A stretch of 63,993 nucleotides of DNA, filler included, from Gonapodya sp. JEL0774 (lineage: Eukaryota), in assembly GCA_027604505.1 (NCBI GenBank). It is 3 parts of 3 records of this genome, joined end to end, with 100 filler letters (N's around TTAATTAATTAA, not from the genome) between each part and the next. Parts side by side here need not be neighbours in the genome. Positions count along the whole stretch, not along the records: positions 24,812 to 49,249 come from JADIIX010000229.1; 2 more parts are not named here. One strand, written 5' to 3'. The stretch's first letter is position 1. Every line of letters begins with the position of its first letter. This document shows, in pieces, positions 9,952 through 57,300 of this stretch. The notes below the pieces were generated by a model. The model was not told the origin of the DNA. It did not search any database and saw only the letters and a program-made list of their open reading frames with translations. A program made the translations under genes and the position numbers.

Positions 9952-10148
9952 GACAGTGCAGCGCGGCTATTTGTAACCACGAATTGATGAATGGAGTGAG
10001 GAGAGACTTGTGGGGTTCCTTTCAATACTTGACACGTCTTCTTGAGTACCGAACAACTGAAAACTTTATAAACATGAATTATATTCCGCTGAGTAGAAGG
10101 TCTCGTAGGGTAGCTGAATGTTTTCGCTCCACCTGCCACTCGGGCCTG

Positions 10149-11255
10149 TCATCGACCCAATCTTCGCACCGCTCTGCTCCAGAGCCCCCGAATCTTGACT
10201 ACAGCTCCAGTAATGAACCCTTTCCCTTCTACAACTCTACGTCTCGTCGGCTCTTCTTGATGACGTTGCAAGATTCTCCCGGGAAGGTCTAGTCCATGTT
10301 GGCGGTCGTCGAAGAGTGTGGTGGTACTGGGAGTGCCGTTACTCCGAAAGATTACTGCTACAGGTGTTGCTGGGAGGAGCAGTGTCTCCCGTTTCTTTTT
10401 GCCCGCTGCGATGATTCGGTGAGCTCGTCGCAGCTTTGCTCGTACACCAGCGAACCCCTTTCGTTGGTCCGCGATGACCCTTTCAGTAGCGAGGATTTGA
10501 TTGTCCTTTTCATTGATAACCATCCGTGCCGGGGCAAGAGATGACCTGAGAAGGCATGACCTGTTCTCAGAGGCCTTCCTTCTCCACCGCAGCGGCGCGG
10601 GAAGAACCAGCAAGGTCGGATTTGAGACTTGCTATCTCCCTGCTCATCTCATCGGAAACTTCCAGCAACTGTCTGAGCTTTGTGACCGCCCAGAACCGTT
10701 CCCCGTCAATGGCAGCCATCCTGTCCGCATTTTCTTGCGCGCATGTCATCGCCGCGACAAGCAAACCATGAAAAATTTCCGAGACTTCCTCCAGCTTCAT
10801 TGACTCTGTGAGTGTCTCATCCAGCTGTGCTGTTGAGATCTCTGATTCCTTTTTGGCGGCGACGAGTTTCTTGCAGGTGTCCTCATGGAGGGCAAGGAGC
10901 TGAGACGAGTTGAGAACGGGTCCGTTGGGCCCCAGGGACAGCCCTGGCGGTTCATAGATCGTAATGGAGGATTAGGTTGGTGGTTCGGTGGCGGCCAGAG
11001 TCCGAGACCTCCGTGCTTTGGCGCAAACGGTGTGGGGGAAAGAGACTGGGGGGTCCAGTGAGTAGCCGGACGAACAGCATCCAGCGCTTTGTGTGTAGTT
11101 TTGCGATCCACCGATAATAGCGATCGACGATGGGCGGGCATGCGAGTGCGCTGAATTGGTGATGGAACGGACAAGATTATCTCAGACAGCCAGCTCTCGA
11201 ATTCGCAATCGCATCGCTTTCGGTACAGGTGAGCTGAGCGATACTTTGTAACCAC
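10149..11255 (-). pseudogene. Frameshifted copy of coiled-coil hypothetical protein (paralog of 11433-12455)
   Basis: Three ORFs in different frames (10797-11255, 10567-10800, 10149-10613) together match the single 340-aa ORF next door, e.g. GLWPPPN, ERFWA, REIASLKS, ARMVINEKD. Confidence 0.75.
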
Positions 11256-11432
11256 GAAATTGAACAGTGGAGTGAGGAGAGATTATGTAGGGTCCTTTCA
11301 ATACTTCGTTGTTATTCTTCAATAGCCAATAGTCAAAAGAGTTCTATTAATCTACTTCCAAACACTCTGAACCGAGGCTTTGCTGTCCACCACTGTTGAG
11401 TACTCTCTCCGCTCCATGTGTAACGCTGGCAC

Positions 11433-12455
11433 TCAGTTACCCAACCTTCCCACCAACCTGCTCCAAAGCCCCCGAACTTTGTTAACGGCGCCATTGACGA
11501 GTGCCTTTCTTTTCATGATACTCTCTCTCGGCGACTCTTCTTGATGACGTTGCAAAAGTTGCCCGGGAAGGTTGAATCCAAGTTGGCCCTCGTTGAAGAT
11601 TGTGGTGGTGCTGGGAGTGCCATCATTCGGAGATATCACTGCGACAGGTGTTGCTGGGGGGACCAGTGTCTCCCGTTTCGTTTTGCCAGCAGCGACCATC
11701 CGGCGAGCTCCTCGCAGCTTTGCTTTCAAACCGGCGATCCCCTTTCGTTGGTCCCCGATGACCCTCTCAGCGATGAGGACTCGATCATCCTTTTCGTTAA
11801 TAACCATCCTTGCGGCGGCCAGTGATGATTTGAGAAGCGTGACCTCGTGTCGGAGGTCTTGCGTCTCCACCTCTGCTGCACGGCGTGACGCAGCAAGCTC
11901 GGACTTGAGACTTGCAATCTCCCTGCTCATGCCATTGGTTACATCGAGCATCGCCCTGAGTTTTGCAATGGCCCAAAATCGCTCCCGCTCAATGGCCACC
12001 ATCGTCTCCGCCCCTTCCCACTCTCGCGTTGTCGCAGCGATGAGCAAGTGACGAAAAATATCAGAAACTTCTTGTACCTTGACAAGCTCAGTAATTGTCT
12101 CTTCCAGTCGTGCATTTGCGATCTCTGACACCTTGTTCGAGGCGACAAGTTTCCTACGAGTTTCCGCCAGCTGGGCCACATGCTCGGACGAGTCGGGAAG
12201 GGTTCCGTCGAGCCCAAATGAGAGCCCTGGCGGCTCACGAAACTTAATGGTCGATTTTGGTCGAGTGTTCGGTGGGGGCCAGAGTCCAAGAATCCCCCGT
12301 TCGTTGATTGCGACGACAGGATTCGCGATAGAGGTTTGGGGGCCTAGTGAGCGGCCGGACGAAGAGCATCCAGCGCTTTCCGAGAGCCTTTGCGATCCAC
12401 TGGTAACATCGATCGACGCATGACGAGCGGTTGGACGCACTGAATTGGTGAACAA
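11433..12455 (-). CDS. Hypothetical coiled-coil protein
   Basis: 340-codon open frame with heptad-like central region and an adjacent duplicate. Start codon uncertain. Confidence 0.55.
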   Translation of the reverse strand: MFTNSVRPTARHASIDVTSGSQRLSESAGCSSSGRSLGPQTSIANPVVAINERGILGLWPPPNTRPKSTIKFREPPGLSFGLDGTLPDSSEHVAQLAETRRKLVASNKVSEIANARLEETITELVKVQEVSDIFRHLLIAATTREWEGAETMVAIERERFWAIAKLRAMLDVTNGMSREIASLKSELAASRRAAEVETQDLRHEVTLLKSSLAAARMVINEKDDRVLIAERVIGDQRKGIAGLKAKLRGARRMVAAGKTKRETLVPPATPVAVISPNDGTPSTTTIFNEGQLGFNLPGQLLQRHQEESPRESIMKRKALVNGAVNKVRGLWSRLVGRLGN

Positions 12456-26913: not shown

Positions 26914-29900
26914 TCACCTTCCCCTACCCCTCCCTTCATTCTTTCCCATCTGCACCGAGAACGACAGTGCAACACGGGCCGCGAGCGCCCGTCGTTGGTC
27001 CTCGGGGAGGGTTTGGGCCATGTCTGTTTGGTGGAACACGCCGTTGGTGCGACGTGTATTAGTGGGCCGGGGACGCAATGGATGATGGACCGACATAAAG
27101 GTGCGCGTAGAGAAAGACGAGTTGGGAATGTAGAGGTTTGGTCAATACCGTTCTACCATTCCCCATCCCCTCGGCACCCCATCCTCACCTCTCAACCCCC
27201 TCAACTTCTCAAACGCTCTATCAAACCCTTCAAACACTTCCTCGGGGTCTCCTTCCTCGCCCAACCCGAGATCGAAACCCCCGGCGGCCACCCCTCCCCC
27301 TCCAAACCCTGCAAACGCTCCAAAATCGTCGTCGAATCCGTCCGCGTCCACGTCCACCTCTTCCAACCGATCCGAGCCTCCATCTCTTTCGAACTTGTCC
27401 CCGGAACGCACAGGCTCCATCCCCTCGAACGCGGCCACCCAGGCGGGGTTGGCGTCCGCGTTGACGTGGCCGTCACCGACCAACGTCGCAGAGGAGGAGG
27501 AGGAGCGGGGTAAGGTGGGGCCGAAGATGTCGAGGTGCATGGCGCGGACGGAGGAGCGGGAGGGGGTGTGTGCGGCTGGGTGGGGGTGGTTGGTGGTGGT
27601 GGTTGCGATGGGGCCCGCGCGGGTGGGCGGTGGGGGAGAATGAGGTGGCGGAGTATGTTAGCCAGATGTACCGACGACGAACAAACAAACCACCGCCCGA
27701 AAGACACTCTGCGCGCACCATTTTTCCCAATTAGGGCTCAAAAGAACACTACGCCCCTTGCCCCCCAAAATACCCACCTAGCCCTGGATCAATCTCCACC
27801 ATAGCCCTCACCACACTCTCAAACTCTCCAAACCCATCGTCATCACCTTGCTCGTCCCCGTCCCTCGCTTTCCTCCTCCCCACACCACCAGCGCCCGTCG
27901 CACGCACCCCAGGCTCACTACCCCCGCCACTCCCGGCCGGCTCCGCCCCATCCCACACATGCGACACTAACGCCTCCACAATGCGGGGCACGCCTTCCCT
28001 CTCCCTCCCCAGTTCTTCGTCCTCGTCTTCCTCCTCCCCGTCCTCCCCGTCCCCCCCACCTCCGCCCAAAACACCGGTACTCGGATCCACCACCACGTAC
28101 TCGAACCCCCGCTCGGCACACCAGTCACGGTAACTTTCGTGCAAGGCGGCACGGCGTTTTTCGTGGCCCTGGACCGGAGCGTGCCGTGACCCTGAGCCGG
28201 TGCTGATGGGGTCCGGCACGGGGCCCGAGTGGAGAGAGCCTGCCGGGTCGTAGGCGACGCAGATGGAGATAGAGGGGGAGAATTTGGAGAGGGTGGTGGT
28301 GTGGGGAGTGAGGTGTTTGAGGGTGGAGGGCTGGATTGGGAGCGGAGGGGGGATAGTGTGATGGCAAACAGAGAGACTGAGTGAGTAACGTTTGCCGCGC
28401 TAGCTGAGGCACAATCAAGAGTATCGAGTGTACAGTGGATGCAGTGTTTCTCTCTCTCACCCATGCATCATGCGGTCCCCCGTCCCCGCGACGTGCTTCT
28501 CTTTTCTATAGTTCCGATTCCCGAATGCAGAATGCCCAATGCCGATGATACAGGTATCCCACTCCCCACCACGGCCCCTACCACGGCACGCACGCAACAC
28601 ACACTGTCTGGAACGCATCACACAAAAAGAGCCGTCACCTCGGACCGCAATCCAGGACCACGAAGCACCGCAAACCCACAACCCCGCACGCCCCCCGGCC
28701 CACCCAAACTCACGTTCGCTGGATCGAACACGACGACCACCGCGTCGACCATGGGTCCGATGAGGTCCCAGTCTTGTGGTGTGAGGAGGAAGGGTGAGCT
28801 CGGGGAGTGTGGTGAGGTGGGGGAAGTTGGTGAGGCGAAGGTTGTGTGTGCGGGTTCGGAGGGGGAGGTAGAATCGGGAGCGGGAGGTGTGATGGACAAC
28901 CCTGTGCCGCCTTGGGTGTCGGGTCGGGCGGCAGTGGCACCTCCACCCTCACACTCGGCCGCCCCGTCAGTTCCAGCCCCCGCAGGCACCGCTGCCACCC
29001 CCGCACCTGCCCCGCCGACGTGCCCCTCCACCGCCGCCACCCAAAAGTCCAGCTCGGCCCTATAGTACTTGTTCTCCACCGACCAGGGCACAATGGCGCC
29101 GTTGGCGAGTGCGGATGAGGGCGAGGGTGAGGTGGAGGTTGGGGAGGATGGGGAATCGGACGAGGAAAGGAGGGTGTCGAGGTGGGGGAGGAGGGAGGGG
29201 GTGGTGGTGTGGAGGATGTCTGGTGGGTTGACGAGTGACAAAGTGAAAGGTGAAAGAGAAATTTACAACATGTCGAAAGGAAGTCGATGTGAGGAGCGAC
29301 GGGCGGGACCCAGCCACCACTCCAACAAACACACGTGAAAGCAAGAAAAAGCCAACAAGGAAAGTACATTTGTATAGGAGATCCCCCGACCGACTGTGTT
29401 CCCTGACCACAACCAGCAAGCAGAGCGCGTGGAGGACACACCAACGCACGTGTTATAAAACAACTACAATCCGACCAAGAACCAACACGAACCAACGAAA
29501 ACGACAACCAACGACCACACGAGCATCCAAGCACGACGCACACACACAAAAGTCCACGAAAAACAGAACAATCTGTGCCCCCACCGACCGGCCGGCCTCT
29601 CAACCCCCCGGCTGTCTCTGAACGGTGTTTCTCCCACGACCGACGGACGCACCTCTGATCAGATGGACGGGTAAGTGGACTGCTGAGGGATGTGAAGATG
29701 AGACGACGAGGATCTTGTTTCGGGGGAGGTCGAGGTCCGAGTCGACGTCGGCGTCCATGTCGGCATCTTCACCACCGGGATGAGCGTCCCAGGAGCCGGC
29801 ACCGTTTCCGCTCGCTTTCCCCATGCCGTTGCCGGTGCCGTCGCCGAGACCCAGGGAGAGGAGCGCCATGTCGTCTGCCAGCGTCAGCGTCGACTGTGTC

Positions 29901-29947
29901 TTTGCCGTGCTCGCCGTCGTCGCCAGCGGATCCGAGGAATTGTCCAT
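26914..29947 (-). CDS. AAGAB: Alpha/gamma-adaptin-binding protein p34 (AAGAB/Irc6-like), multi-exon
   Basis: LPRNKILVV, PWSVENKYYRAELDFWV, DAVVVVFD, WCAERGFEYV, EREGVPRIVEALVSHVW and C-terminal LPEDQRRALAARVALSF. Confidence 0.8.
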
Positions 29948-30344
29948 CTGGTGCGAGTCTCAGACTGTGTATGCGGTGTATGGATGTGCTGGATTCCCAG
30001 TCTGGACGTCTTTGCTCTGCTCTCTCTGCGTCGCGGGAAATCAGGTGAAAATGGGTGATCTCGTGTGAAATCAATTCTTTGTGTGAAATTGGGATGCACC
30101 CGTGGTCACTGCATAAACACAAACCTCCATTCCCACTCGCTGCATCTATTCTATGTATTTGCGCATTCAGTTTTCCCAAATCATGGCTATCTGAGTCAAT
30201 CTGTGCATGCTCGGGCCGCTCATTCAAATCTCTTTCCCCTCCGTGGTGCCTTGCTCTTTGTCACTCCGACCAAATCCATACAAACCTTCTTCGTCCGTTG
30301 GTGCAATCCACAGCCTATCCTGTGCTCTGTCACCTGCTTGTTCG

Positions 30345-31996
30345 AAACGGTTTAGCTTCCTTGAGAGAGCCGTGATCAGGGAAAGGTCCAAGGATTTGTT
30401 CGAGACTTGAAGACTTCTGCAGACGAATCCAATCAAATGATCCAGAAAACGGAGACGGGTACAGGAATACGCGAAAATTGACTTTTCAGGTTTACCAAGG
30501 TGGTATGGTGCGGTAGACGATTTTCGGGTATTCCATCACCCGCACCATCACCTGTGTGTGCGGAGAGTACATTCATTTGTACTTATGTAGTACGCACTCG
30601 GGAGAGGCGTGATACCTGATTCTCGAAAAACACTCTACAACTATGGTTTCAGAGGCTTTTGGCCAAAACTGGTGGTTTTGGAGCAAAACAGTTTTGGAGC
30701 TGCCAAATACGCCCCAATGAGATCATCCTCGTCTTTCAGCAAACAAAGCTCCACAGCATGACGGGTGTGCCAGCTGCATGCCAAACTGGCAGACAATGGA
30801 TGTCTATCACCACGACGAACGGTTCGTTGATGATCAACACGCTCAACAGATTCATCTCCATCTCTGTCGACGAAAATCCCCTCGTTGTTCTGTAATCTGA
30901 ACGAGAATTAAAATTCGTGTATTGGACACCCAATGAACGTGGGCAACCTATCACGCCATCGTGGACGTGCCAATTGGCCACCCAAATGCAACGCCCCCTT
31001 TGGATCCAGTTTCATTCAACAATTGGAACCCCAACTACAATCGCGGCTTCACCACGAACGAATATTACGAACGTGCTGGTTACTTGGCCAACGAGTGAGT
31101 TGAAAACCTGGCCGCAATTGTTTCTTCATTTTCTGAAACATGGATAAACCTTCCCTTTATTCCATATGACATCCTCCCTTTACTTTCATTCAGGAGAATC
31201 CGCGCAAAATGGATGAATCGGAATGCCCGCGTGAACGACTTCAACAAGAGTGTGAAATCGTACAAAACAGTGGATCACGCAGCCCTCCTGGTCGATCTTC
31301 AGTTCCGCCTGAGGGAACTTACTTATGTGATGAGGTTTTATGCAATTCGGCGGTGGCGGTGGTATGTTTCTTCTGCTTCCCTCTCAGTGGCTCAGCACAC
31401 ACAGGTTGACGCTTTTGTGCTTTCCAAGTCTGCGGCTTAGGGCTAAATCTGGTCAACAACGAGCTCTAGCCCAGCTCATGGACAAATTTTTAGGTGGTAG
31501 GAACCCGAACGAGTGTGTGATAGCGTGGGGTGCAGCAGAGTTTCATCAAGTAAGTGGTATTTTCGGCCTGTGTCCTGCGAGTGCCAGGTTGATGATTGTG
31601 ATACTTCCAACCCAGGCTTCCAAAGGACATCGGACGTCGCCAAATAAGCTGATCCGAAGATACTTTGTGACGCGAGGGGTGACTCTGATCTTGATAGATG
31701 AATTTCGCACCTCAAGGATCTGTTCGAGTTGCCACAACTTCTTTCCCAAGGACGAGGGGACGAAGCAGAGGCTGTGGGGTGTACGGTGAGTTTGATCGGC
31801 TGTGACAATGCTGAGGACGATGGATGCCAAGGAAAGCATCACACTTGTTCCCGCACTCCCCACCAGGTCATGCGCGACCATGAATTGTGGCATAACCTGG
31901 AATCGTGACAGGAATGCCGCCCGGAACATTTTGTACCTCTTCTTCCACGCCAACGCCACTGGCACCGTCGTCCGCCCCGGCCTCTTCCAACGGTGA
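30345..31996 (+). mobile_element. Fanzor (eukaryotic TnpB-like RuvC nuclease), spliceosomal-intron-containing; 5' half disrupted
   Basis: Spliced 3' half reads FTTNEYYERAGY...SYKT...FYAIRRWR..LR...QQRAL...VIAWG...KGHRTSPNK...LIDEFRTSRICSSC...LWGVRSCATMNCGITWNRDRNAARNI...RPGLFQR*. Introns at 31095-31193, 31362-31428, 31550-31615 and 31786-31866. Stops and frameshifts lie upstream of ~30945. Confidence 0.88.
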
Positions 31997-32183
31997 AGCG
32001 CAGGCTGTTCACCAGTTAGTTTTATTTGTCATTTGGAGATTCTCTCTACCCACACTCCCTTCACATTTCTTTTGCACATGACTACTCCTGTTCCTGCCCT
32101 CCACTTCCCAACTCCCTCCAGCCATCTTCTACCAATTTCTCAATCCCTAGACGCTGCCGCCATCCAGGCAAAATAATAGGCGG

Positions 32184-32346
32184 TGCACATTCACATTGCA
32201 CCTCGTGAATGTGCATAGGCTCCTCCTGGCGTTGGGCTCTCAGGGCCGACTGTGATCCGGGGTAGGGACCTCTAAGAATTACAGAACGGCATAAGACCCT
32301 TAGGAGTACAAAGCAGTGTCATATTTTGGTTGTGCATGTTATAGGG
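32184..32346 (+). ncRNA. Putative Fanzor omegaRNA scaffold / element right end (copy 1)
   Basis: Non-coding, ~190 nt after the Fanzor stop. Begins with a perfect 11-bp hairpin TGCACATTCAC/GTGAATGTGCA. Its 105-nt core is near-identical to 33875-33979 and the similarity ends sharply after TTATAGGG. Confidence 0.55.
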
Positions 32347-32478
32347 GCAACTACTAGATATGTATCAGCCAAGTCGAGCCGAATGAGTCACGAGTCACCA
32401 CCAGAAGCTCAGCGTTCCCTACACCTAGTCCAACCAGCACACCCACCTATACGCTTCAAATCAAGCCGAACACAAACG

Positions 32479-33395
32479 ATGCAATCACGCCTGTTCTCGC
32501 TTTCTTACGTATCCCGGGTATCGCCGGTGTCGCGTGCGCTCCTCTCCATACCCCAGCAGCCTCCACATTCCATCCACAAGCCCCACCCCCACTTCTCCAA
32601 ACGACCACGGAGCACAAGCGCTCGTGCACAGGGTCAAGCACGGGACCCGAAACCAGAGAAGACGGAGTACTTTATGGAGTCGGGCGAAGGTAGGTGGTTC
32701 GGTCTTCAAAAAGGAGCGGGACAAGCGAGGAGTTGTTTCCCGGTTTGCTCTCACGCTCGGTTATGTCACCCCGCGTCCCTTCCCCCTGCACGTCTTGGTA
32801 CCCCACTCGCCACAATCCACCACCACCCGCCACTCTTCCAAGACGCCTTCTCCCCCGAACCTGCCCATCTCGATGACGTTGCCGTCAAAGTTGAGACGAA
32901 CAAGGACTGGGTCATGGCGAGCGGGGAATGTGTGTTGAATGTACTGGGGGTGACAAGGGTGGGGGCAGGGGGCGCGTGTTCTGGCAACCCGCACTCACAC
33001 AACGGCTCCTCTCTTCACTGCTTGCGTCGCCATGTAGTGGGCATTCCTGCGCACCAAACGTCACCGGTTGAGAACGTCCACTCGTGAGCGTGTGAATGCG
33101 CGTGACGTGCGTTTTCCACATGATTTTCACCTCATCACCTGCTACCCATGCCTGTCACTGCCTGCCTTTTGCCACCTGCTTCTACAACCGACCCAGCTAC
33201 TCTCTGGACTCTGGCGAGACCGTCACAACCACAAATACTCTCCATGGTGACTCGGAGCTCACTCCAGCCGACAGTGAGACACGGCTGGACGGTCGTCCCC
33301 ACCGGGGCGTGGAATACGATATGGAGAGCGGGGAGCACGGTGAGTGGTGTTCGTGGAAATTGTGGAAGAGTAATTTTTGTGGGGGATCTGTGTGA
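32479..33395 (+). CDS. Small hypothetical protein with mitochondrial-targeting-like N-terminus, multi-exon; 3' end uncertain
   Basis: MQSRLFSLSYVSRVSPVSRALL... followed by exon-like acidic segments with a repeated MESGE/LDSGE motif. Confidence 0.45.
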
Positions 33396-33836
33396 TGAAG
33401 AAGAGGATCGAGGAGTGGGTGGTGGGTGGACCCCAAGGGGCAACGGAGTGGGGATTGGTGAATGAGGAGGAGCGTCAAAAAAGGGAGTAAGACCAAAACC
33501 CTGGGCCATTTGGAGTTTCGGGAACCCTCGCTGTGGTCGTTTATTCGCTTATGTGCTCTTCCCGAGTCCTGCGTACATTGTTTACTGACGGGAATCTCAT
33601 CCCACACCCTTCCCCGCCAATCTCCACCTGCCTGGCCCCGTTACGTCCTCACAGTCGGCAAGTCGGCTGAGTAGCTGAGAAGTGTTGGATGGTCCTCACT
33701 TTTTTTTTCGAATGTGGATTGTTTGGTGGGGTTCTTGGGTTCACGAGTACTGCGTGTCGGACTGATCTGCATGCTTCATGTAAATAGAAACATTTAGTGG
33801 TTCTTGGGGGGGACAACGTGATGGGAGGAAGGTGCC

Positions 33837-34029
33837 AATGGTGCACGGCTCCTCTGGCGCCGGGCTCGGCTCTGAGGGCCGACTGTGATCCGGGGTAGGG
33901 ACCTTTAAGAATTACAGAACGGCATGGAACCCTTAGGAGTACAAAGCAGTGTCATCTTTTGGCTGCGCATGTTATAGGGTCTATGTGTATGGCGAATGGT
34001 GCACGGTCTCCTGCTGTGGTGCCGTGCTC
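33837..34029 (+). ncRNA. Stand-alone putative omegaRNA scaffold (copy 2), 15-nt spacer and start of a third copy
   Basis: Direct repeat of 32208-32346, followed by TCTATGTGTATGGCG (33980-33994) and then AATGGTGCACGG..., which repeats the element's 5' end. Confidence 0.5.
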
Positions 34030-34070
34030 CCACCCTCCTCACCGAACCGTCATATTCTCAGCACAAACCA

Positions 34071-35036
34071 ATGCCCGCCAAAGCGAACCCCACTCCCGCA
34101 CCCACTGCGTCTAAAAAAGACGCCAAAGACGCCAAGAAAGACGCCAAGGACACCAATCCTACCGACACAGACGAGAAGCGCGGCGAGAAGAACCTCGACG
34201 AGCTCGACGATGCTTTCGAGGATTTCCCGGCAGACGGTGCGTGGGCTGGCAGGTGGTTTGTGGGGATAGGGTGTGCGGGGCGGGAGGGGATTGGGGGGAA
34301 TGGGGGGGAGAATGGAAACGGACGGGCGCTTCACTTGACGGTTTGCGCAACTCCCAGGAGTGGACAACGGTGGCCACGCGGCGGGACAAAGAGCGACCAC
34401 AACCCGGCTTTATTTTTTCCTCCCGTTGAAACGTGGGGCTCGGTTTTCATTCCCTTTCCCTTCCCTAAAAATGTCGCTCCTCTTCCCCGTCGACAGTCTA
34501 CGACTCTCCAGACGCCGACTCCGACCCCGCAAAGACGGCTCACGTGTGGGAAGACACGTGGGAGGATGAGGACCAGGTCGAGGATTTCGGGGCGGGGTTG
34601 AGGTGGGTTGTGTGTGGTGCAGACGGGGGCGAAGTGGGGCGGTCGGCAAGGCGTCGTTGTCGGGGTGGGAGATTGGAGGGAGGGCGAGGCTCGCGTGTGC
34701 CGTGCGGGACGTGAACAAGGAACGTGGGTCCTTGAGAGCCACGACGCAGCCCCCGTTCTGGACACTCATCGTCCGGGCTCGTTTATGTTACACCCACCCA
34801 TGCGCTTGACCACTTTACGGTGACGCATCACTTACCCATATTTCCCTACCCATCCCTTACCCCTTGTCCCCGCCACCCTCTTCACCCGCTTGCGTGCCTT
34901 TACCACCTGTTTTTCTCCTCCTTCAACCATCCACCCCCACCGGTTCCCACCCCATCCCGCCCCCCCTCATTCGCGCCCCAACCCTTACAGAGCCGAACAC
35001 GAGAAACTTGCCGGGCCACAGCCTATGAAGATATGA
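34071..35036 (+). CDS. SEM1: 26S proteasome subunit Sem1/DSS1, 3 exons
   Basis: LDELDDAFEDFPAD | ...HVWEDTWEDEDQVEDFGAGL | RAEHEK...QPMKI*. Confidence 0.88.
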
Positions 35037-36179
35037 GGGGGGGGTGTTGGACCGGTGGGGAGATGTTGGGGACACGGGAGGGAGTGCGTGGTGCGGCGGC
35101 GATGGACAATCAACATGGCGGATGGCGAGTGGTGATTGGTGGTTGGTGGGACGGAGAAATGAGGGAATGAGGGTGGAATGTGGAATGAGTTGCTTTGTGC
35201 GTCGAAGAAAGAACCAAGTGCGTTGATTGGCGGAGGAGAGACCAAGCCGGGTGGTGAGCGAGCGAGCAGGATCACTCGGGAGTGTGCATTGTCTGCTGCG
35301 GACGGACGTGGTTGTGATTCTAGCCGCGGCTGTTGGTGTGTGGTGGTGCGCAGTGCGGAAAGAGAGGGTGTGGCGGTGGCGATGGCGGCGGTTGGTGGGA
35401 ACTGCACTCGGCGAGGTGTTGTAGACATGTCAGTCACCTTGCTACACGGGGTGGGGTGTCCACGTGATGCGCACAGCACAAGGCGCCGGTGTGCGATGTA
35501 CAGGCCACCAGTGGAACTTTGAGGTTCATTACCAGGATGATTCTAATAGCGCAAGGAGGCGCCAAAAACAACAACAACAATAAAAATTACATGGAGAGCA
35601 TGTTCACATTCGCGGTGACCCAGCCGGGCAAGATAGAACAAGGTACCGGCTCGATGTGAGCCATCGTTACATTTATGTACACGTGAACCGCACCGTTGTG
35701 GTGTGGTGTGGTGGTCCCCCTTCGTTCGGCGGGTGCGTTATGGTAATATCAGTTGCGCCGTCTTTTGAGATGGCACCAAACAGAGAACATGCGAAAACTT
35801 CGATTCACAGTGCACAACTCCCGACACCACGAGGCGTTATTTCTGTCTCCTGGTGTGCGATTCACAGTGACTTTTCTGCCCAGAGCAGTCAGGATTCAGG
35901 AGTATATGGACGCCTTCATCGACGCCGATCGGGAAAGGAACATTCAGTCGGGTCACTATGTAAAGAAAATGACTTATGATCCACATTACAAATGTCGCAT
36001 GCATGTTATGCTCGGCAATGTACCAAATCTGATAGTCTCGTGGCGGCATGCATGTAGGCTAAAAAATCGTGTATGCCGAATATTTGCAGTGGCCGATGGC
36101 TCGGACTGCGATGCTGTGGGGCGTTCGGAAAATCTCGACGAGAGCCCTGTTCATGATCCATGCAGGGCACCTGGTATTA

Positions 36180-38511: not shown

Positions 38512-40357
38512 ATGACCTCCTACCTCACAAAACACCGCCCAGGACGCACGATATTCGCCAATCCAGGACCTACGAATGTGCGATTTGGCGGACCTCGGTT
38601 GCTGTTTTGAAACCACGTCTTCTCATTGCTCGTGTTTCTTTCTCCCCCGCCGCCCTCCACAAACGATCCGGCTCAACTCCCTTGTTCCGCGATCGTGATT
38701 GCTCACATGTCATCGTACGACGACGACATTGTAGATTCCAGAGTCGGTCCTCCATGCCAGCGCGGTTCCGTCTCTCGAGTGAGCAGAGGAACCAAAATCG
38801 AAATCGGAGCGCATGCTCGCACCACCGTAGTCTCATCCCACGCTCTCTCTTTTCCTCACAACTCCCCTCTTGCGTTTATTACCCTGGTTCTCTTCTGGCC
38901 TTCCCCCCATGCCTTCTCGATATCCCGTTGTCTCAAGCTTCATGGATGAAGACTTCACCAACAACGTCTACCTCCCCTCAGTCGAGTACCTCAAAAAGAT
39001 CCTCAAGACTGAAACCGCCCAGATTTTCCTCTCCGCGTCGTCGGGAAATGGATCGTGGGAGTCGGTTCTGGTCAACCTCTTGTCTGCCGGTGACAAGATC
39101 CTCATCATCGAGGGGGGTTTCTTCTCGGATTTGTGGGGCTTTATGGCGGTATGTGGTCTTTCTCTGTTTCTTGCATGAGCAAACTCGAGCTTTCGATGCC
39201 CATCCTCACTACTCGTCCACCCAACCCGCCCCTTCTTCCCCCAGCGCAACCTCAGCCTCGAAACCCAAGTCCTCCCCACCCCCGTTCGCACTGGCCTGGA
39301 CCTCGACTCCCTCCGCACCACCCTCCTCGCCGACCCGGAGCACACCATCAAGGCCATCTGCGTGGTCCACAATGAGACGTCGACGGGCGTGACCCTCCCC
39401 CTTGGCGAGATCCGCCAGGTCATTGACGAGACGGCCCACCCGGCACTGTATCTGGTCGACACTATCAGCAGTCTGGCCAGCATTGATTTCCGTATGGACG
39501 AGTGGAAGATCGATGGTGTGGTGTGCGGGGGGCAAAAGGGACTCATGCTGCCCACGGGGCTTGCCATCTCCGCAGTATCGCCTAAAGGGTGGGCAGCATC
39601 GGCGACTTCCAACCTCCCCAAACACTACTTCAACTGGCGGTTCCAGATCCAACGCCTGCCGCACAAATCGTTCGCCGGGACCATACCCACACACATGATC
39701 TTCGCGCTCCGCGAGTCACTCCGAATCATCGAGGCTGAGGGTGGCGTAGACGCGGTCGTTGCAAGGCACAAGAGGCTCGCGGAGGGGGTCAGGCGGTGTG
39801 TCGCGTATTGGGGCAACGGAGGCACATCCACTCAGTTGGAGGGCGCGCCAGAGTTTTTCTGTCAGGACCCCACGCGGTACTCGGATTCCATCACAGCGGT
39901 GGTGATTCCTGGAGAGGGGAAACCAACCGAGGTGAAGAAGGCATGTTTGGAGCTTGGAGTGAGCTTGGGTGGTGCGATCGGGAAGTGGACGCAGGGCAAG
40001 GTGATCAGGATTGGTCACTTGGGTAAGTGTCTGATGATGAATCTCTGTCTGTTCTGCTTTTGTGTCGTTGTGGTTTTGCTACTTTTTTGTTCAGAGGGGG
40101 GTGAGAACTCTACTTCGAACCGTCTTACCATAACACACGTCCTCCCCTACCCTTAAGGCGACAACAACGAATCTTCCATCCTCGCCATCCTCGCCACCGT
40201 TGAAACCGCCCTCAACATCACCGGAGTACCTCACCACGCCGGCGGTGTGACACAGGCCGTAAAGTATTTCGCGGAGGCGAAAAAGACGGCCAAGAAGGCG
40301 GCCGAGGCGGCGGAATCCGCGGAGCCGGCGCAAGTGAAGACGAACGGACACGCGTGA
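38512..40357 (+). CDS. Class V PLP aminotransferase (serine/alanine-glyoxylate aminotransferase-like), copy 1
   Basis: PGRTIFANPGPTN, VVHNETSTGV, VDTISSLASIDFRMDEW, GGQKGLMLPTG (PLP lysine), IRIGHLG. Ends TNGHA*. Confidence 0.92.
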
Positions 40358-47529: not shown

Positions 47530-49114
47530 CTACAGCTTGCTCCCGGTCTCGCCAGACCGTGCTTCTGCAAAGAACCGAACCGCCTTGGTGACCCCACCCG
47601 GGTAGTGAGGAACTTTGGCGATGTTCAAGGCAACTTCGATGGTGCCAAGGACACCAAGAATGGATGATTCGTTGTTGTCCCCTGTTATGTGCAGCGGATG
47701 ATGAGTTGAGACACACACACAAAGCACGGTGCACCGTTCGACCCACCCAAGTGTCCGATTCGAATAATCTTCCCCTGTGTCCACTTTCCGATTCCTCCGC
47801 CAAGACTCACGCCCAACTCTAAGCTCGTCTTCTTCACCGCCTCGGGCTTCCCGACTCCCGGAATCAGCACCGCGGTTATCGAGTCCGAATATCTCGTGGG
47901 ATCCTGGCAAAAGTTCTCTGGTGCACCTTCCAACTGCTTCCCCGCGTCCCCTTTACCCCAGTGGTCCACGCACCGCCTCACACCCTCGGCCAGCCGGTGA
48001 TGCCTGGCGGTGACGGCGTCGACCCCTCCTTCGGCTTCGATCAAGCGCAGCGACTCGCGGAGGGCGAGTATCTGCTGTGTGGGCATGGTGCCGGCGAAGG
48101 ATTTGAAAGGGACGCGGGTGATGGCGACTTTGTAGTTGAAGTAGTGCTTGGGAAGGTTGGAATGGGCGGTGGCGGCCCACGCTTTGGGAGACACGGCGGA
48201 AAAAGCCAGACCGGTTTGGAGCATGAGGCCCTGTGTCGTTATGTGATGATAATGCGAGGGTGTTGATGAGGGGGGGCTGACTCCGTGGACGTGTATGTGC
48301 CGCCACGTGCAGCAAAAAGGTACTGGAACACACCTTCTGCCCCCCTCCAACGACCCCGTCCACTTTCCACTCGTCCATCCGAAAATCTATACTTGCCAGA
48401 CTGCTGATGGTATCCACCAAGAACAATGCCGGGTGGGCCACCTCGTCGATCACCTTCCTAATCTCTGCCAGGGGCAGGGTGAGACCTGTGCTGGTCTCGT
48501 TGTGGACCACGCAGACGGCCTTGAGCCGGTGAGCCGTGTCGGCCGAAAGCACGGTGCGGAGTTCGCCCAAGTCGAGGCCGATACGGGCGTTTGTGTGGAT
48601 GTACCGGACTTGGAGGCCCAGGTTTTTCTGTGGTGGGTCGGTCATCGGGTGGCCCCACCAGTGAGCATTGAGCATGCAGGCGGGGTTTTAACACAAGTTC
48701 GCACACCGGAATGGTCGAAGGCTCACCGCCATGCCCCCCCACGCCTCGGGGAAAATCCCGCCCTCGACCATGAGTATTTCATCACCCGAGGACAACAAGT
48801 TGACGAGCACGCTTTCCCACGCGCCGTGGCCCGAGGACGCGGACAGAAAGACCTGCCCTGAGGTGGTTTTGAGCACGCGTTTCAAGGCGGCCACGGTGGG
48901 GAGGTACACGGTGTCTGCGAAGTCGTCGCTTTGGGGGCTTTATGGGACGGGCATGAGAGCAATAGGGGAATGGAGAAGACGGGGAATTTTGATGGGGGAC
49001 GGAAGAGGGGGGCATCGGAGTTCCGGATGTGATTGGATCGGGTGGCACTATTCTCCAGAATAAAACTCACTCGAGGGACGGGATCGACGCGGCCTGCAAG
49101 ACCGAGTGTGGAAT
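47530..49114 (-). CDS. Serine/alanine-glyoxylate aminotransferase-like copy 2 with PTS1; first exon not found before the contig end
   Basis: Same motifs as copy 1 (VVHNETSTG, VDTISSLASIDFRMDEW, GGQK). C-terminus ETGSKL*. Confidence 0.9.
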
Positions 49115-51308: not shown

Positions 51309-54300
51309 ATGGCGGATGATGACGATGCTCGCAGTGACGCGGTCAACGTGAGCGCAGACACAGGGCGGAGCGTGGGACGAGGGGCCACACGGGGTCGGAG
51401 TCATCAAGGGGCGACCCCGCGGGGAGGCCAGGCTCGAGGCGCAGGCAGAGGCGGCGAGGGTGATAACAGAGGGCGAGGGAGGGGAAATACTCTGCAGGGA
51501 AGAGGGGGGAATGAACGGGGTGGTGGTGGAAGAGGTGATACCAGTAACTACAGAGGCGGCCGAGGGTCGGACCCCAGAGGGCGTGGAGACGGTCGTGGCG
51601 GAGGACACGACAATGGCCATGGTCGAGGTTACTTAGGAGGAGGCGGAGATCGCGGTGGAAGAGGGGCTGGAGGTGGGTCATTGGCCTCGCGCGGTCGTGG
51701 CCGTGGGGCCGACGGCACAGGTGGACAGCCGTGGCGCGGGTACAGCGGACGCGGCGGGGGTCGTGGGGCGGGTCTCGGCCCTAGCGGTGCCGGTGTGAGA
51801 GGCACCGACGCTGTGCACAGGTTCATTAAGCTGATGCGGTACGCCGGGCACAACATCGCGCGCACCATTGAGAGCAGCCGGGCGGAGTGGAATACGTGCT
51901 GGATGCACGCGCGCCACCTCTCCCCAGACGAGTTGCGCTCGCTGTTGACCGCCGTCGCAACCATTCCTTACTCTGCCCATGTCGAGGCGCCACCCCTGGC
52001 GGGACTGAGTGAGGCATTTGATGTCTTTAACTCGCAGACACAGAGTGTGCGCAAGTCTGATCCGACCGGTGCAATGGGGCAGGTTGAAATTGTATTCAAC
52101 GCAGTGCGGGTGAGTTCCTTTCATTTTGTGCCGAATGTCAGGAATAAGAATACAGATTGCGTATTATTGCTAGACACTGAGAACGTTCTCGTGGGATGCT
52201 GACGGAGATCAAGTCCGGCAGTGCTTGAGCAACGCTCTGGACGAAGCCTCCTCGGCACTGAAATCTTCCATCCCCGGTGAGTCCAGGTTCCTCGATCTCC
52301 ACAATTTGTTTCCCAACTGACTAGTTGTTCTGCCTCACCGAACCCTCACCCGTACACTAGATCACCGGATCCTTCAGGAGAAAATCAACGGGGAGCTCCA
52401 ACACCTCGAACGCCCGTGGTCCATCAAGACCATATCCAAAGACGCCGAGGAGGTTGTCGCCGCGCAGGCATCCTCGTTTTTGGAGGCGGAGGGCACAAGC
52501 AAAGCCCTCATTGCCGCCTCCAGGTGGAAAGACGCCAACGTCGGGTGGCTGTCCGACAGCCGATGGTTCCAGCCACCGTGCCTGCCCATCTTCCACGTGC
52601 CGGGTACCAAAACGGACGGCTTCTACAAGTCGCCCGAGGAATACTTTGAGACGGTGCTTCCTGTGTGGACGGGCCTCATGTTTCAGGATGGCAACAGCGC
52701 ACTGATCCCCAAATGCAAGTGGAAGGACGCGGCGTCTGGGAAGGATTGCGGGCATGTCCTGTGGCCCGTGGAAGAGCACGTACGTCGAGGACGTTGTCGC
52801 ACGAGGGGATGCGAGAACAGCTGCTCTGCTGTGTGCAGCAACCCGCACCACAACTCCGGCCTCTGTACGCCGTGCGCCGATAAGGTACGCGAGCAGCTCC
52901 GCGGACCACCAGGGCCGGGAGCGTCTACTCATTTGTATGATGGGACTGTGAACAGACTGGACCATGACGATCAGGTGTGGCTCGTGGGAATTGCGAGCCG
53001 GCGACCCCCACAGCAACCTATCCATTGGAAAACAACGGCGCGGCTCGCATCGCCCAATTTGGTCGGCGTTGTCAAGGTCGCGTACACAGGAGCGGGGCTG
53101 AGGATGTCCGATCGCATTTTTTGGGCGGAGGTGAAGCAGCACTCATATTCAGGACAGCCCGAGTTTGAGTACCGAGAGAGGGGCCAGCTTGTTGTCGCGT
53201 TAATCCACCAGGACGGGTCGGCGGAGAAGTACTTCCGGAAGGGGGACACTGTGGTGGTGATCGACTGCCTCACTTTCGCGCCAGAGTTCGTGCCCGTGCT
53301 GAATGCGGTGGAGAAACTGCGTCTCTTTTCTGTGCCGTTTCGCAACGGCGCTCTGCTGCATATGGCGGCCGGGTTGGCGGAGTCTACCGAGGAAGAACCG
53401 GTCTCGGATCAAGTTCGGGGCGCCGAAGTGCTTCAACTCGACGTGTCCGATGACGACATGGAGCAGCGAGTGGTGCAGATGCTTCGTGATTCTCAGTTGA
53501 TTCCGATCGTGCATATCAGAAGGTGAGTCATTGAGAGCTTGGGTGTGACGGAATTGAGATTTGAGATGAAAATGTCGGGTTATAGCAATTCCAGATGTCT
53601 TGCTGATCTCAAGACAAGACTTACTGCCCTTCTGAAATCCGCCACATTGGACGAGAAACAGCTGGATGCGTTTATTCAAGGATTTATCCATCCCGTCCAT
53701 CTCACGCAAGGGCCTCCGGGGACGGGCAAGTCCTACCTTGGCGTGGTGATGGTTCGAGCGCTACTGATTGTCAGAGAGCTCTGGATCGCCTCCGACCCAT
53801 CGGTTGGCCAGCCACCGATCCTCGTCCTCTCATACAAAAACCACGCTATCGACGAGTTCATGAAAGATTTGGTGACTATGGAGGCGAGCATTAAACAGTT
53901 TCCGTTTAGGCGCGGAAACATCAACAGCGTTGTTCGTATTGGATCTGGGAGTAAAGACCCAATCTTGCAGCCTTACACTGAAGGGCAGATGAAAATGACG
54001 ACGCCGCAGGTTACTGAGGCGCGAAGGAACCTGCTCGCTCGGCACGGACAATTGAAGGAGTACAGCGCCGCACGTGAGAGATTGAACGGATTTATTGAAC
54101 TAAAGATTGACATGTTAGCCGCAGAGGACGAGAAGGTCAGTCGACAAGCTTCGTACAAACTTGCGCAGTTTCTTGGAAGTTCGATTGCGCTTCTGAATGT
54201 GATGAAGGAAAGAGTCGAAGATGCCGCCTGGAAGCGCATGGTCGAGCTTGCTTCAAAGGGAGCCTTGCTTGGTGACTCGATCAGCGAGACAAACTTCTGG

Positions 54301-57300
54301 CGCAAGGGCAAAGACACAGAGGATGATCAATTGAGCGAAGAGGGAGTTGACCTTTTGTGGACAACCCCGCTTGAAGGTCAAATATCCAAGGCTGAAAATT
54401 CACGCTTGAGTGGTATTTTGGGCCAACTGTACCAATCTATTCGACATATGGAGCTGCGTGACGGAGCGTGGCACCCGCAAGAGGTCCTTTGGAAGTGGGT
54501 TGGTGGATTCCAGCCTCGCCCACAGGTAAGAGGATTTATCTGCGAAGGCTTTTGATGCATTTTTTTTATCTTTGAACGTGAGTCTTTAGTGCTCCTATTC
54601 AACAACTAGCGTCGATGGTGGGTCGCTGAGGTGCATTAATTCCGCTGATCGCGATGGTATTCTTTGTCGATTGCACCGGTGTCAATTTATCGAAATTATG
54701 GATGAAGTTAGGATATTTTGCTCTCATCCGGTTGGCGAATGGGGTGGCCCCTGCTGCGACGTTCACACGTGCTCAGCGCGAACCGTCGAGCCTCCTTTCC
54801 GATGCATCTATCCTCTGCGGCCAAACAAGGGGAGGGCGATGGTTCCATTCTGCGAGGACCATGGTTGTCGAATATGTGTAGCTGAATGGATCGACACGAA
54901 TCCTGAGGCAGTGCTGTTGGCCGTTGATGCTCCGCCTCGAAATGTATGTGAGGAGCATCCGCTCTGCAGCGCGGTTGACAAATCCGCCAAGAGTCTTTGC
55001 AACAATCTCGCTGGACCAGCTGGATACTGCGAGAGACATGTACCCGTACGGTGTGTTTCGAAAACGAGAAGGGGAGGCATGTGCAAGGGCCGCGGGGAAT
55101 CCGCCGAATTTCCCTTTTGCTTAAATCATGCAAACAACGCACCAAGCACCCATAAACAGGCAGTCCAGCCACGAGAGGTACCACCGAAGCCTTCCTTTGG
55201 ACTCGAGGAGTTTGAAATACCCATTGATTATGCAGATGATGATGATGGTGCCCCGATTTTCGACAATGGAAACTCCTCAGAGTTGGTTAAGGATGATGAG
55301 TGGGATATTGTGGCAGACCTTACACCCGAGACAAAGACGATCAGTACTACCGAACCACGCAGATTTGAGAATACGAGACCATCAAATGTGCTTGATTCGG
55401 TTGGACATACAGTGTCAAGCAAGGGACTACAGGGTGAAGTTGCACCAAAGCCTGAAGATGATGTCCCATCTGCTGAGACTCATTCGGCCACCTCCGACGA
55501 TTCAGACGTGGGTGATATCCAAGTTGCAACGGACAATGTCGACGAGGTGGAAGTTGAGATGGAAGATGAAGAGCCAGAGGCAGTTCAGCACATGAGAGAT
55601 GTCTTTGGCATTGAGAGCGATGATGATGACGAATTGGAAGCACCAGTCACCTTGTCTAAGCGAGACACTGTCCACAAAGATAATCTACAGCCAATTGACG
55701 AAAAGCGTGTTCAAAGTCGCTTTGTACCGATCGATAAGTGGACATGGACAATGTCTGGTGAAGAGAGATGGCAAGCTGTTGAAGGGCTTCTCAATGTGAT
55801 TCAGTTCCTGATGGGGCGGTCCATCGATCACATCATTGGGAAAATTGAAGATGCTCAAGACCTCTATCGCGAGGCAAAGGTAAAGGCGACAGCACACGTC
55901 TATGAAGGGAAAGCCGTTATTGCCGGAACAATGGTTGGCACGATTGCACGCCTCAAGTCCATCACGGCAACGAAGCCGTTTGCGATAGTATGTGAAGAAG
56001 CATCTGAAGTCCTGGAACCACTCCTGCTCGCTTGCATGTCGCAGTACACCATCAAGTTGGAAATGATTGGGGATCACCGACAATTGAAACCAATGATAAT
56101 GCAAAAGTTTGATTTTGAGCGGGTGAACAAGATCAATATTTCCCTGTTTGAGCGATTAATCCGAGCTTCGAGTAAGGCTCAGGCTCCATCGACAGCGTTG
56201 AGCATTCAGAGGCGAATGCGAAGCAATATTGCAGACCTCACCAGAGACTTTTACGAGGATATTGTCGAGATTGTCGACCATGATATGACGAATACCAGGA
56301 AGATTGGTGGGATGGGGCGACCAACCAAGAACGAGTTGCAGTTGTTAGCTGTGTGTGAGACTCAAGGTAAATATGCAATGGAAGAATCTTATTATGCATT
56401 TGAGTTTCATGTTCCGTGATAGGCCGAGAAATACCTGGTGTTGTCCCCCACATTTTTTGGTGGTCGCACCAGGGAGTGCAAACTATTGCTTCCGTGGGAC
56501 TAAGCAAGATAAACAAGACTGAAGCTGACCTTGTCGTGAACCTGGCCGCTTATCTCCACACGTGTGGAGTGCCCAAACGTTCCATCGTGATCTTGACGCC
56601 GTACAAGGGTCAGTTAACGCTTATTCGGAAGGCATTACAGAACAAAGGTCTCCTTCCACGATTTGGACAAGGTGTACCGGCCAGCGATGGGGTTGTTTTG
56701 TCCACTGTAGATCGGTTCCAGGTGGGTTTGACACTACAACCGCCTTTCGAATTTGGTCATGAGAAAGCTGTTGTTCTCCAGGGAGACGAAGGTGACATCA
56801 CCTTGATTTCGTTGGTGACTGATGGAAAGTCCAGGACGCCTTTTGTGCAACTTGTAAACAGGATGATTGTTCTCCTTTCACGTGCACGCTTGGGGATGTT
56901 TATTGTGGGAAACACTGACTACTTTGAGAAAAATATGCCACCTCACTGGCAAAAGACTTTTGCGAAGCTTTCGACAATAGTACCGACGGATACTGAAAGA
57001 AAACATGACCTGCACCCAGAGATTATAAGCTTGGAGGCATCAGCTAGTCCCCAACCGCCCGAAGAGATTCAAGATGGAGAAGTTCCAAGCGTCCCGACTC
57101 GCATTGGAAAAGGACTGCCAATCTGTTGTCCCCAACATCGCGACAGTGCCAAGCTTGCGTATTCTTCAATCGATCTAGCGCTTGGGTTTTGCGAAATTCA
57201 ATGCACCCACACGCTTTCCTGCTCTCATACCTGTGGGAAAAAGTGTCACTATCCCAAGTTGGCCGACCACACTGTGCAATGTGCAGAAAAGGTACCTTCT

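What the first reader, a model, noticed from the sequence alone, without database searches (positions are those of the whole stretch)
33837..34029. Orphan second scaffold with a 15-nt spacer and a restarted repeat: possible guide mini-array
Seen: a second copy with no adjacent nuclease gene, followed by a different 15-nt sequence (TCTATGTGTATGGCG, 33980-33994). A degenerate repeat of the element's own 5' end comes next (AATGGTGCACGGTCTCCTGCTG vs AATGGTGCACGGCTCCTCTG). Known: nuclease-less 'ghost' omegaRNA loci exist for Fanzor and can act in trans. Inference: a scaffold-guide-scaffold arrangement giving one Fanzor family several guides, loosely analogous to an array. The duplicated 12-mer could instead be a target-site or local duplication.
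Basis: partly seen in the sequence, partly recalled or inferred. Interest (0 to 1): 0.8.

Follow-up and report, generated by a model that had tools for sequence, protein, structure and literature searches.

The report
Truncated Fanzor end, not guide array
A second, gene-less copy of the tail of a fungal Fanzor nuclease element sits just upstream of a housekeeping gene, and the short repeat after it is most likely the duplicated insertion site rather than a second guide unit, so this is probably an ordinary truncated jumping-gene remnant of a kind described in green algae.

Summary
33837-33979 copies the DNA behind a Fanzor1 gene 1.6 kb upstream (104 of 112 nt identical in the core). The 15 nt follow, then a repeat of the copy's start that chance does not explain (0 of 3000 shuffles). 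The mini-array reading is not supported. The restart repeats only the 5' ~34 nt, lacks the conserved core and guide-proximal end, and lies 42 nt before the start codon of a SEM1/DSS1 gene. The neighbouring Fanzor gene is itself 5'-truncated (last 245 codons, four introns, no RuvC-I) and has a 7-bp direct repeat at its two ends. Removing copy 2 rejoins its flanks into one long hairpin, and the first 7-8 nt of the 'spacer' extend the scaffold's predicted terminal stem. Each of these tests is modest and post hoc. Best reading (0.6): a one-ended, 5'-truncated insertion with a 12-bp target-site duplication and a short extra end, as described for Chlamydomonas CRe-1/2/3 Fanzor elements and Replitron-1. 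It may still yield one extra guide RNA; expression, targets and other copies could not be tested, as no genome or reads were available.

The parts
30941..30947 (+). Candidate 5' target-site duplication of copy 1 (7 bp), overlapping the point where protein homology starts
   Evidence: Identical to 32345-32351; 63 of 5000 random site pairs reach 7 bp in +-10 nt windows, 331 of 5000 in +-20 nt. Found post hoc.
30946..31996 (+). 5'-truncated Fanzor1 gene: five exons (30946-31094, 31194-31361, 31429-31549, 31616-31785, 31867-31996), 245 codons plus stop, RuvC-II E, zinc finger and RuvC-III D present, RuvC-I and everything upstream absent
   Evidence: Spliced frame has no internal stop and 145 identities to aa 600-844 of P0019; P0019 is KXS17374.1, listed as FZ1 in the supplement of PMC10432273; no significant tblastn match to the first ~550-600 aa of P0001/P0019 in the contig. 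Introns are inferred from GT-AG ends and homology.
32184..32215 (+). 11-bp hairpin just 5' of copy 1, absent from copy 2
   Evidence: -15.1 kcal/mol, z -5.9 against mononucleotide shuffles
32208..32346 (+). Copy 1 of the repeated 3' end (putative omegaRNA scaffold), starting about 210 nt after the stop codon
   Evidence: the omegaRNA role is inferred from position
32345..32351 (+). Candidate 3' target-site duplication of copy 1, overlapping the shared end by 2 nt
33823..33834 (+). Host flank complementary to 34031-34043; likely the outer left arm of the pre-insertion hairpin
   Evidence: Empty-site fold -34.2 versus -17.9 kcal/mol for the downstream part alone; 29 of 3000 random 15-nt flanks do as well, 169 of 3000 at 30 nt
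33837..33848 (+). 12-bp direct repeat, left copy (likely 5' target-site duplication; 15 bp with one mismatch from 33834)
33849..33867 (+). Weakly conserved 5' part of copy 2, similar both to copy 1 and to 34007-34029
33868..33979 (+). Conserved 112-nt core of copy 2: predicted central hairpin (33883-33917) and long terminal stem-loop (from about 33922)
   Evidence: 104 of 112 nt identical to copy 1; all 8 differences fit the consensus fold, but 111-186 of 1000 random mutants do as well
33980..33994 (+). The 15 nt: first 7-8 nt predicted to close the terminal stem, last 3 nt possibly part of the site duplication, the rest parent flank or filler
   Evidence: Anchored pairing: 33 and 111 of 20000 random 15-mers; unanchored: 241 and 794 of 5000; no homology with copy 1's flank, 537 of 1000
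33995..34029 (+). The 'restart': 12-bp repeat (33995-34006) plus 23 nt similar to the scaffold's 5' part; forms its own hairpin; likely host DNA upstream of SEM1
34071..34601 (+). SEM1/DSS1-like host gene (likely start codon at 34071; intron-containing; end approximate)
   Evidence: Pfam PF05160 hits on two exon pieces, E 1.1e-05 and 0.035, both below the curated cut-off; ATG position

Best explanation
33837-34006 holds a gene-less copy of the 3' end of the Fanzor1 element between two copies of a 12-bp sequence, and is most likely a 5'-truncated, one-ended insertion whose repeat is a duplicated target site, not a second scaffold. Shown: the duplicated end, the 12-bp repeat, the truncated Fanzor gene beside copy 1, and a 7-bp repeat at that copy's two ends. 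Inferred: a staggered break in a hairpin-forming site upstream of SEM1 primed DNA copying from the right end of a parent element towards its left. Copying stopped after about 146 nt, where the scaffold happens to resemble the target, and the new strand annealed there; that would explain why similarity runs past the 12-mer. The 15 nt would be element end that copy 1 lacks (about 7 nt) plus parent flank or filler. Copy 1 would have arisen the same way from a 1.4-kb copying tract; it kept its introns, so it was copied as DNA. Untested: if transcribed, copy 2 would supply at most one extra guide RNA, with the guide starting near 33987, to an intact Fanzor elsewhere. The enzyme that made the break (a Helitron/Rep-type transposase, Fanzor itself, or host repair) is unknown.
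For: Family context: the gene fragment is Fanzor1, 5'-truncated with an intact 3' end. The 7-bp repeat lies at both independently defined ends of copy 1 (63 of 5000 random pairs). The 12-bp repeat lies at the ends of copy 2 (4 of 3000 random pairs at +-30 nt), with no similarity to the left of the two 12-mers (696 of 1000). The inferred empty site folds into one hairpin across the junction (29-169 of 3000 random flanks). The first 7-8 nt of the 15-mer extend the terminal helix in both copies' versions of the partner strand, although these differ at three adjacent bases (21 of 20000 for both). The similarity of copy 1's version to the downstream DNA is of a kind that 149 of 3000 shuffles reach, so chance homeology of that strength is common. 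Precedent: CRe-1/2/3 intron-bearing Fanzor1 elements are often 5'-truncated and then flanked by 7-19-bp TSDs (PMC3627910, passages); 20 extra RNA-only copies exist in that genome (10.1101/2023.06.13.544871 section 10); Replitron-1 insertions carry parent-derived 'fuzzy ends' plus variable TSDs (PMC10288648 section 9 part 1).
Against: Similarity between copy 2 and the restart continues 22 nt beyond the 12-mer (1 of 1000), and the 12-mer itself aligns weakly with copy 1 (31 of 1000); common descent explains both more simply. The supporting tests were all designed after the pattern was seen and weaken with window size: the 7-bp repeat to 331 of 5000, the empty-site hairpin to 447 of 1000 shuffled 30-nt flanks, the spacer pairing to 794 of 5000 unanchored and 295 of 1000 in a full fold. 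Neither 5' repeat follows the T-rich tetranucleotide of CRe elements (sequence). No transposase was found among the ORFs scanned. No empty allele, parent copy or read was seen.
Confidence: 0.6

Rival explanations
1. Relic head-to-tail pair: the restart is the 5' stub of a third scaffold, made by local tandem duplication or by reverse transcription of two mature omegaRNAs in a row, and has lost its 3' 110 nt. It no longer provides a second guide.
For: Three-way similarity of the 5' segments; copy 2 and the restart begin at the same base; extension beyond the 12-mer 1 of 1000; 15 nt equals the 14-15-nt native guide of SpuFz1 (PMC10432273 section 7).
Against: The restart pairs with host DNA upstream of copy 2 once the insertion is removed; its similarity to copy 1 is weak (149 of 3000); copy 1 shows the site-duplication pattern without any tandem; part of the 15 nt is predicted to belong to the stem.
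Confidence: 0.2
2. The repeated DNA is the terminal DNA or 3' UTR of the element, or a small repeat beside it, and gives no working guide RNA at either site.
For: Fold z-scores of only -0.33 to -1.64; structure-compatibility of the substitutions not significant; the only adjacent nuclease gene lacks its first catalytic motif; no Rfam match.
Against: Position behind a Fanzor1 stop codon, two-stem layout and length resemble characterised Fanzor1 RNAs (PMC10432273 passages); the core is better conserved than the 5' part. This rival is compatible with the insertion origin and differs only on function.
Confidence: 0.1
3. Working mini-array or guide cassette: scaffold, 15-nt guide and a restarted scaffold 5' end that acts as the next unit or as a cut signal fixing the guide's 3' end.
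For: The arrangement and the 15-nt spacing are real; the restart forms a hairpin (-17.9 kcal/mol, z -2.9 against mononucleotide shuffles); a bacterial TnpB trims its RNA at the scaffold's 5' side (PMC10278001 section 11).
Against: Only one complete unit; the repeated piece is the guide-distal end; no sequence could serve as a second guide except the SEM1 leader; the restart's hairpin is weaker against dinucleotide shuffles (12 of 200); no target in the window; viral 15-mer matches share no adjacent motif.
Confidence: 0.06
4. Assembly artefact joining diverged repeat copies in a fragmentary assembly.
For: The window is three short contigs joined by N linkers; the region could not be checked against reads.
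Against: The copies differ at 8 of 112 nt and by indels, which a simple assembly duplication would not give; flanking repeats sit at the junctions.
Confidence: 0.04

Closest known systems
CRe-1/2/3 Fanzor1 elements of Chlamydomonas reinhardtii (Helitron2-associated; PMC3627910; 10.1101/2023.06.13.544871; PMC10530073)
   Same: Intron-bearing Fanzor1; RNA region starting 100-200 nt after the last exon; 5'-truncated copies with intact 3' ends; variable direct repeats of 7-19 bp around truncated copies; extra copies of the RNA region without the gene.
   Different: Fungal (closest proteins are from Gonapodya); no T-rich tetranucleotide before the 5' repeat; no asymmetric inverted repeats or Helitron transposase identified; only two copies seen.
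Replitron-1 / Replitron-N1 insertions (PMC10288648)
   Same: Right end followed by a short variable stretch and then a variable-length target-site duplication; the author tentatively links this signature to Fanzor.
   Different: No Rep transposase or terminal direct repeat shown here; the parent of the extra 15 nt was not found; copy 2's repeat ends in RG but copy 1's does not.
Ghost Spu-1 elements of Spizellomyces punctatus (PMC10432273)
   Same: Gene-less copy of a Fanzor1 right end that could give an omegaRNA in trans.
   Different: Ghosts are ~550-nt elements with 30-nt inverted repeats at both ends; here there is no left end and the copy is about 145 nt.
Stand-alone omegaRNAs of prokaryotic OMEGA systems, and arrays derived from omegaRNA duplication (PMC10691335 passages)
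   Same: A scaffold without its nuclease gene near a related effector.
   Different: Here there is one complete unit only, and the repeated piece is the 5' end, not the part that precedes a guide.

Membership tests
Fanzor1 (gene beside copy 1) | Homology to a classified Fanzor1 protein | tested here: met
   145 identities over aa 600-844 of P0019, listed as FZ1 in the PMC10432273 supplement; PF07282 hits below cut-off on two exon pieces
Fanzor1 (gene beside copy 1) | RuvC-II E shortly before the C4 zinc finger, and RuvC-III RD | tested here: met
   Alignment
Fanzor1 (gene beside copy 1) | RuvC-I aspartate and N-terminal REC/WED region (active nuclease) | tested here: not met
   Homology starts 7 residues after the RuvC-I D of P0001; a stop lies upstream in frame; no N-terminal match in the contig
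Fanzor omegaRNA | Expressed small RNA bound by Fanzor, ending 14-15 nt past the conserved end | not testable with these tools
   No genome; no run could be listed
Fanzor omegaRNA | Conserved, structured right end followed by variable flank | tested here: inconclusive
   Two copies only; fold and substitution tests not significant
Ghost element (Spu-1 type) | Inverted repeats at both ends | tested here: not met
   13 matches to the 13-nt end at up to 3 mismatches versus 10.6 expected; the only exact ones are the two right ends
CRe-1/2/3-type one-ended Fanzor insertions | 5'-truncated copies with intact 3' region | tested here: met
   2 of 2 copies in the window
CRe-1/2/3-type one-ended Fanzor insertions | Variable TSD of about 7-19 bp | tested here: inconclusive
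   Direct repeats of 7 and 12 bp at the junctions of 2 of 2 copies, but no empty allele seen
CRe-1/2/3-type one-ended Fanzor insertions | T-rich tetranucleotide before the 5' TSD | tested here: not met
   0 of 2 copies (sequence)
Helitron2 | RepHel transposase or asymmetric terminal inverted repeats | tested here: inconclusive
   No Helitron domain among the window ORFs scanned (a selection, not all ORFs); left end missing; one 11-bp inverted match at E 7.4
Replitron-type fuzzy end | Extra end matches the flank of a parent copy | not testable with these tools
   No match in the window; genome not held
Guide array (CRISPR-like or tandem omegaRNA) | Two or more complete guide-adjacent repeat units with different spacers | tested here: not met
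   The restart covers only the first 31 of about 143 nt of the unit

The most novel reading that the evidence does not exclude
A natural head-to-tail Fanzor guide cassette in a fungus: a mature omegaRNA (scaffold plus a 15-nt guide from another locus) was copied in front of a second scaffold start, which now marks the guide's end. It would be the seed or relic of a eukaryotic guide array that arms an intact Fanzor in trans.
Probability: 0.07. Interest if true: 0.8.

Novelty: new member of a known kind. Interest (0 to 1): 0.3.

Why it matters
As it stands it is a remnant. Its value is that both copies show the insertion signature (5' truncation, variable site duplication, extra end) that the papers I read describe in Chlamydomonas, where the cause is stated to be unknown and Fanzor is a tentative suspect (PMC10288648, PMC3627910). 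A fungal family with the same signature would let one test whether Fanzor cutting drives these insertions and whether scaffolds travel with their parent's guide. A true array would matter far more, but the anatomy argues against one.

Tried and rejected
Genome: none held. Sequencing runs: none was listed for 29000-36000, which is no evidence either way, so no reads were laid. Relatives of the repeat by exact pattern: 0 in metagenome contigs; 12 viral loci for a 16-mer, none extending past 17 nt; 0 viral loci for an 18-mer; 3 bacterial loci for a 19-mer, the longest match (23 nt) lying in an open reading frame on the other strand and judged chance. Related loci from a three-protein alignment: 0 of 185, 0 of 57 and 0 of 50 candidates confirmed. 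Targets: in the window each 15-mer matches only itself, plus one 3-mismatch site for the copy-2 15-mer against 1.1 expected. Viral contigs gave 119 and 65 exact loci, with 84 and 44 distinct contexts, no motif shared between the two sets and no extension beyond 5 nt. No control 15-mer was scanned, so calling these chance is my inference from their length. Known RNA family or tRNA: no match over either copy. Left end or inverted repeat: none. Tandem duplication of a 158-nt unit including the spacer: rejected, no similarity left of the 12-mers. Homology of copy 1's flank to the 15-mer: rejected. A host gene split by copy 1: no long frame across the inferred empty site, and no homologue of the neighbouring frames. 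Earlier scan findings: nothing on this genome or sequence. Literature: 'Fanzor + Gonapodya' 0 papers; 'Fanzor + ghost' 2; 'Fanzor + array' 88, of which 40 seen as listing; 'Fanzor + tandem + guide + fungal' 11, 8 listed. None of the titles or abstract openings described a natural Fanzor guide array, but most were not read. One search returned mostly unrelated papers. The original IscB omegaRNA paper was not held.

Full report
Setting. The window is three contigs joined by N linkers; the finding lies in the middle one, 24812-49249. No genome is held and no sequencing run could be listed, so all DNA evidence comes from the window. The closest proteins are from Gonapodya assemblies, which points to an early-diverging fungus.

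The observation. A 112-nt block at 33868-33979 matches 32235-32346 at 104 positions without gaps. Gapped similarity extends about 30 nt further 5' (31 identities, 3 mismatches and 8 gap positions for 32208-32243 against 33837-33876). The copies part after 32346 / 33979 (537 of 1000 shuffles extend as far). The 15 nt follow, then a 12-mer identical to 33837-33848, which occurs only twice in the window, and similarity continues to 34029. This restart is not chance: 0 of 3000 shuffles and 0 of 629 window tiles reach its score, and the part after the 12-mer is matched by 1 of 1000. A SEM1/DSS1-like gene begins 42 nt after it, at 34071.

The neighbouring gene. Five exons at 30946-31996 splice to 245 codons without an internal stop and share 145 residues with aa 600-844 of P0019. 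P0019 is KXS17374.1, listed as FZ1 in the supplement of PMC10432273 (one PDF file of that supplement could not be searched). The fragment keeps the RuvC-II glutamate, zinc finger and RuvC-III aspartate. It starts just after the RuvC-I motif, and nothing upstream in the contig matches the first 550-600 residues of P0001 or P0019. Copy 1 therefore also lacks a working nuclease. P0001 (93% identical over the 46 residues matched) has the N-terminal part and RuvC-I, but I cannot say whether it lies in the same genome, and its predicted protein stops early.

Is the repeat an omegaRNA? Its position about 210 nt behind a Fanzor1 stop codon and a two-stem predicted fold fit characterised Fanzor1 RNAs (PMC10432273, section 7 and passages). 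The direct evidence is weak: fold z-scores are -0.33 to -1.64. All 8 substitutions fit the consensus structure (5 unpaired, 3 G-C/G-U), but 111-186 of 1000 random mutants do as well. There is no Rfam or tRNA match. The omegaRNA label remains an inference.

Why not an array. In Fanzor RNAs the guide follows the 3' end of the scaffold. A second guide therefore needs a second copy of that end. The restart repeats the first 31 of about 143 nt and none of the conserved core. A tandem duplication of the whole 158-nt unit is also not indicated, because nothing to the left of the two 12-mers is similar (696 of 1000). No target for either flank was found in the window, and viral 15-mer matches share no adjacent motif. 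These target searches have little power.

Evidence for a site duplication. (a) Copy 1's element has the same 7-mer at 30941-30947, where protein homology begins, and at 32345-32351, where DNA homology with copy 2 ends; 63, 182 and 331 of 5000 random pairs reach 7 bp in +-10, 15 and 20 nt windows. (b) Joining the flank before 33837 to 33995 onward gives one long hairpin, -34.2 kcal/mol against -17.9 for the downstream part alone and -22.1 with the present spacer. Random genomic flanks match this in 29, 89 and 169 of 3000 cases for 15, 22 and 30 nt, and shuffled flanks in 38, 44 and 447 of 1000; DNA parameters give 43-255 of 3000 and 75-477 of 1000. This suggests the restart is host DNA that once adjoined the upstream flank. 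(c) The first 7-8 nt of the 15-mer extend the terminal helix with either copy's partner strand, though these differ at three adjacent bases: 33, 111 and (both) 21 of 20000 random 15-mers when anchored, but 241, 794 and 190 of 5000 unanchored, and 295 of 1000 in a full fold. Copy 1's own flank gives no such pairs. The element may thus end near 33986, with copy 1 a few bases short. All three tests were built after I saw the pattern, and none is decisive alone.

What does not fit. A plain site duplication does not predict 22 more nt of similarity. Over that stretch copy 2 sides with copy 1 at four differences and with the restart at one (alignments), so it is mostly element DNA. Copy 1's version resembles the downstream DNA only as well as 149 of 3000 shuffles do. 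I read this as chance homeology that set the point where copying stopped and annealed. Common descent of three scaffold starts remains the main rival (0.2).

Mechanism. Shown: the duplicated end, both direct repeats, the 5' truncations and the retained introns. Inferred: copying from a parent's right end leftwards into a staggered break, early termination at homeology, and fill-in giving the duplication. Unknown: the enzyme; no transposase was found among the ORFs scanned (a selection). Untested: transcription of copy 2 and its use by an intact Fanzor.

Comparison. PMC3627910 (passages) describes CRe-1/2/3 Fanzor1 elements as frequently 5'-truncated with 7-19-bp TSDs, and a TIR-less Mucor family, MCi-2, with 11-12-bp TSDs. 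10.1101/2023.06.13.544871 (section 10) and PMC10530073 (passages) report 20 additional copies of the Cre RNA region. PMC10288648 (section 9 part 1 and passages) describes parent-derived extra ends plus variable TSDs and tentatively suspects Fanzor. Spu-1 ghosts have inverted repeats at both ends; this copy has none. Stand-alone omegaRNAs acting in trans are summarised in PMC10691335 (passages) and PMC11610941 (first part). PMC13565253 (passages), 10.1101/2023.08.09.552727 (passages) and PMC10278001 (abstract, passages, section 11) gave background. It works like the CRe-type truncated insertions; membership of Helitron2 is not shown, and the T-rich target rule is not met. My searches found no paper on Gonapodya Fanzor loci and no listed title on natural Fanzor arrays. 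Supplements of bioRxiv preprints could not be seen and may list such loci.

Verdict. Real feature; new member of a known kind; interest 0.3. Truncated insertion with site duplication 0.6, relic tandem 0.2, non-RNA terminal DNA 0.1, working cassette or array 0.06, artefact 0.04.

Noticed in passing
window 33649-33659 and 33878-33888: An 11-bp inverted match to the scaffold core lies 220 nt upstream of copy 2 (E 7.4 for the window); could be chance or an asymmetric inverted repeat.
   Followed up: no
window 33863-33872: A 5-nt tandem duplication in copy 2 sits exactly where similarity to the restart ends and the 93% block begins; it may mark a recombination junction.
   Followed up: partly
window 32184-32215: Strong 11-bp hairpin just before copy 1; its left arm starts within the same 7 nt (32182-32188) as found at 33840-33846 in the 12-mer.
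   Followed up: partly
window 32352-33674: Possible intron-containing gene on the + strand between the two copies; no Pfam or homologue match for the pieces tried.
   Followed up: partly
window 53539-63225: A run of long, nearly intron-free ORFs with AAA_11/AAA_12 helicase and several AAA domains, apparently one very large gene broken into frames.
   Followed up: no
window 9982-11162 and 11258-12451: Two diverged tandem copies (71-81% identical, spacing about 1280 nt) with ORFs of no Pfam match for the one scanned.
   Followed up: no
window 8488-9951: ORF joining a jacalin-like lectin domain to ricin-B-type lectin repeats.
   Followed up: no
window 39239-40024 and 47745-48633: Two class-V aminotransferase genes in inverted orientation, about 72% identical.
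   Followed up: no
P0001, P0002, P0019: Gonapodya Fanzor1 proteins are large (up to 845 aa) and form a small group: only 2 hits among 4918 candidates for P0001 residues 330-690 within the length range searched.
   Followed up: partly
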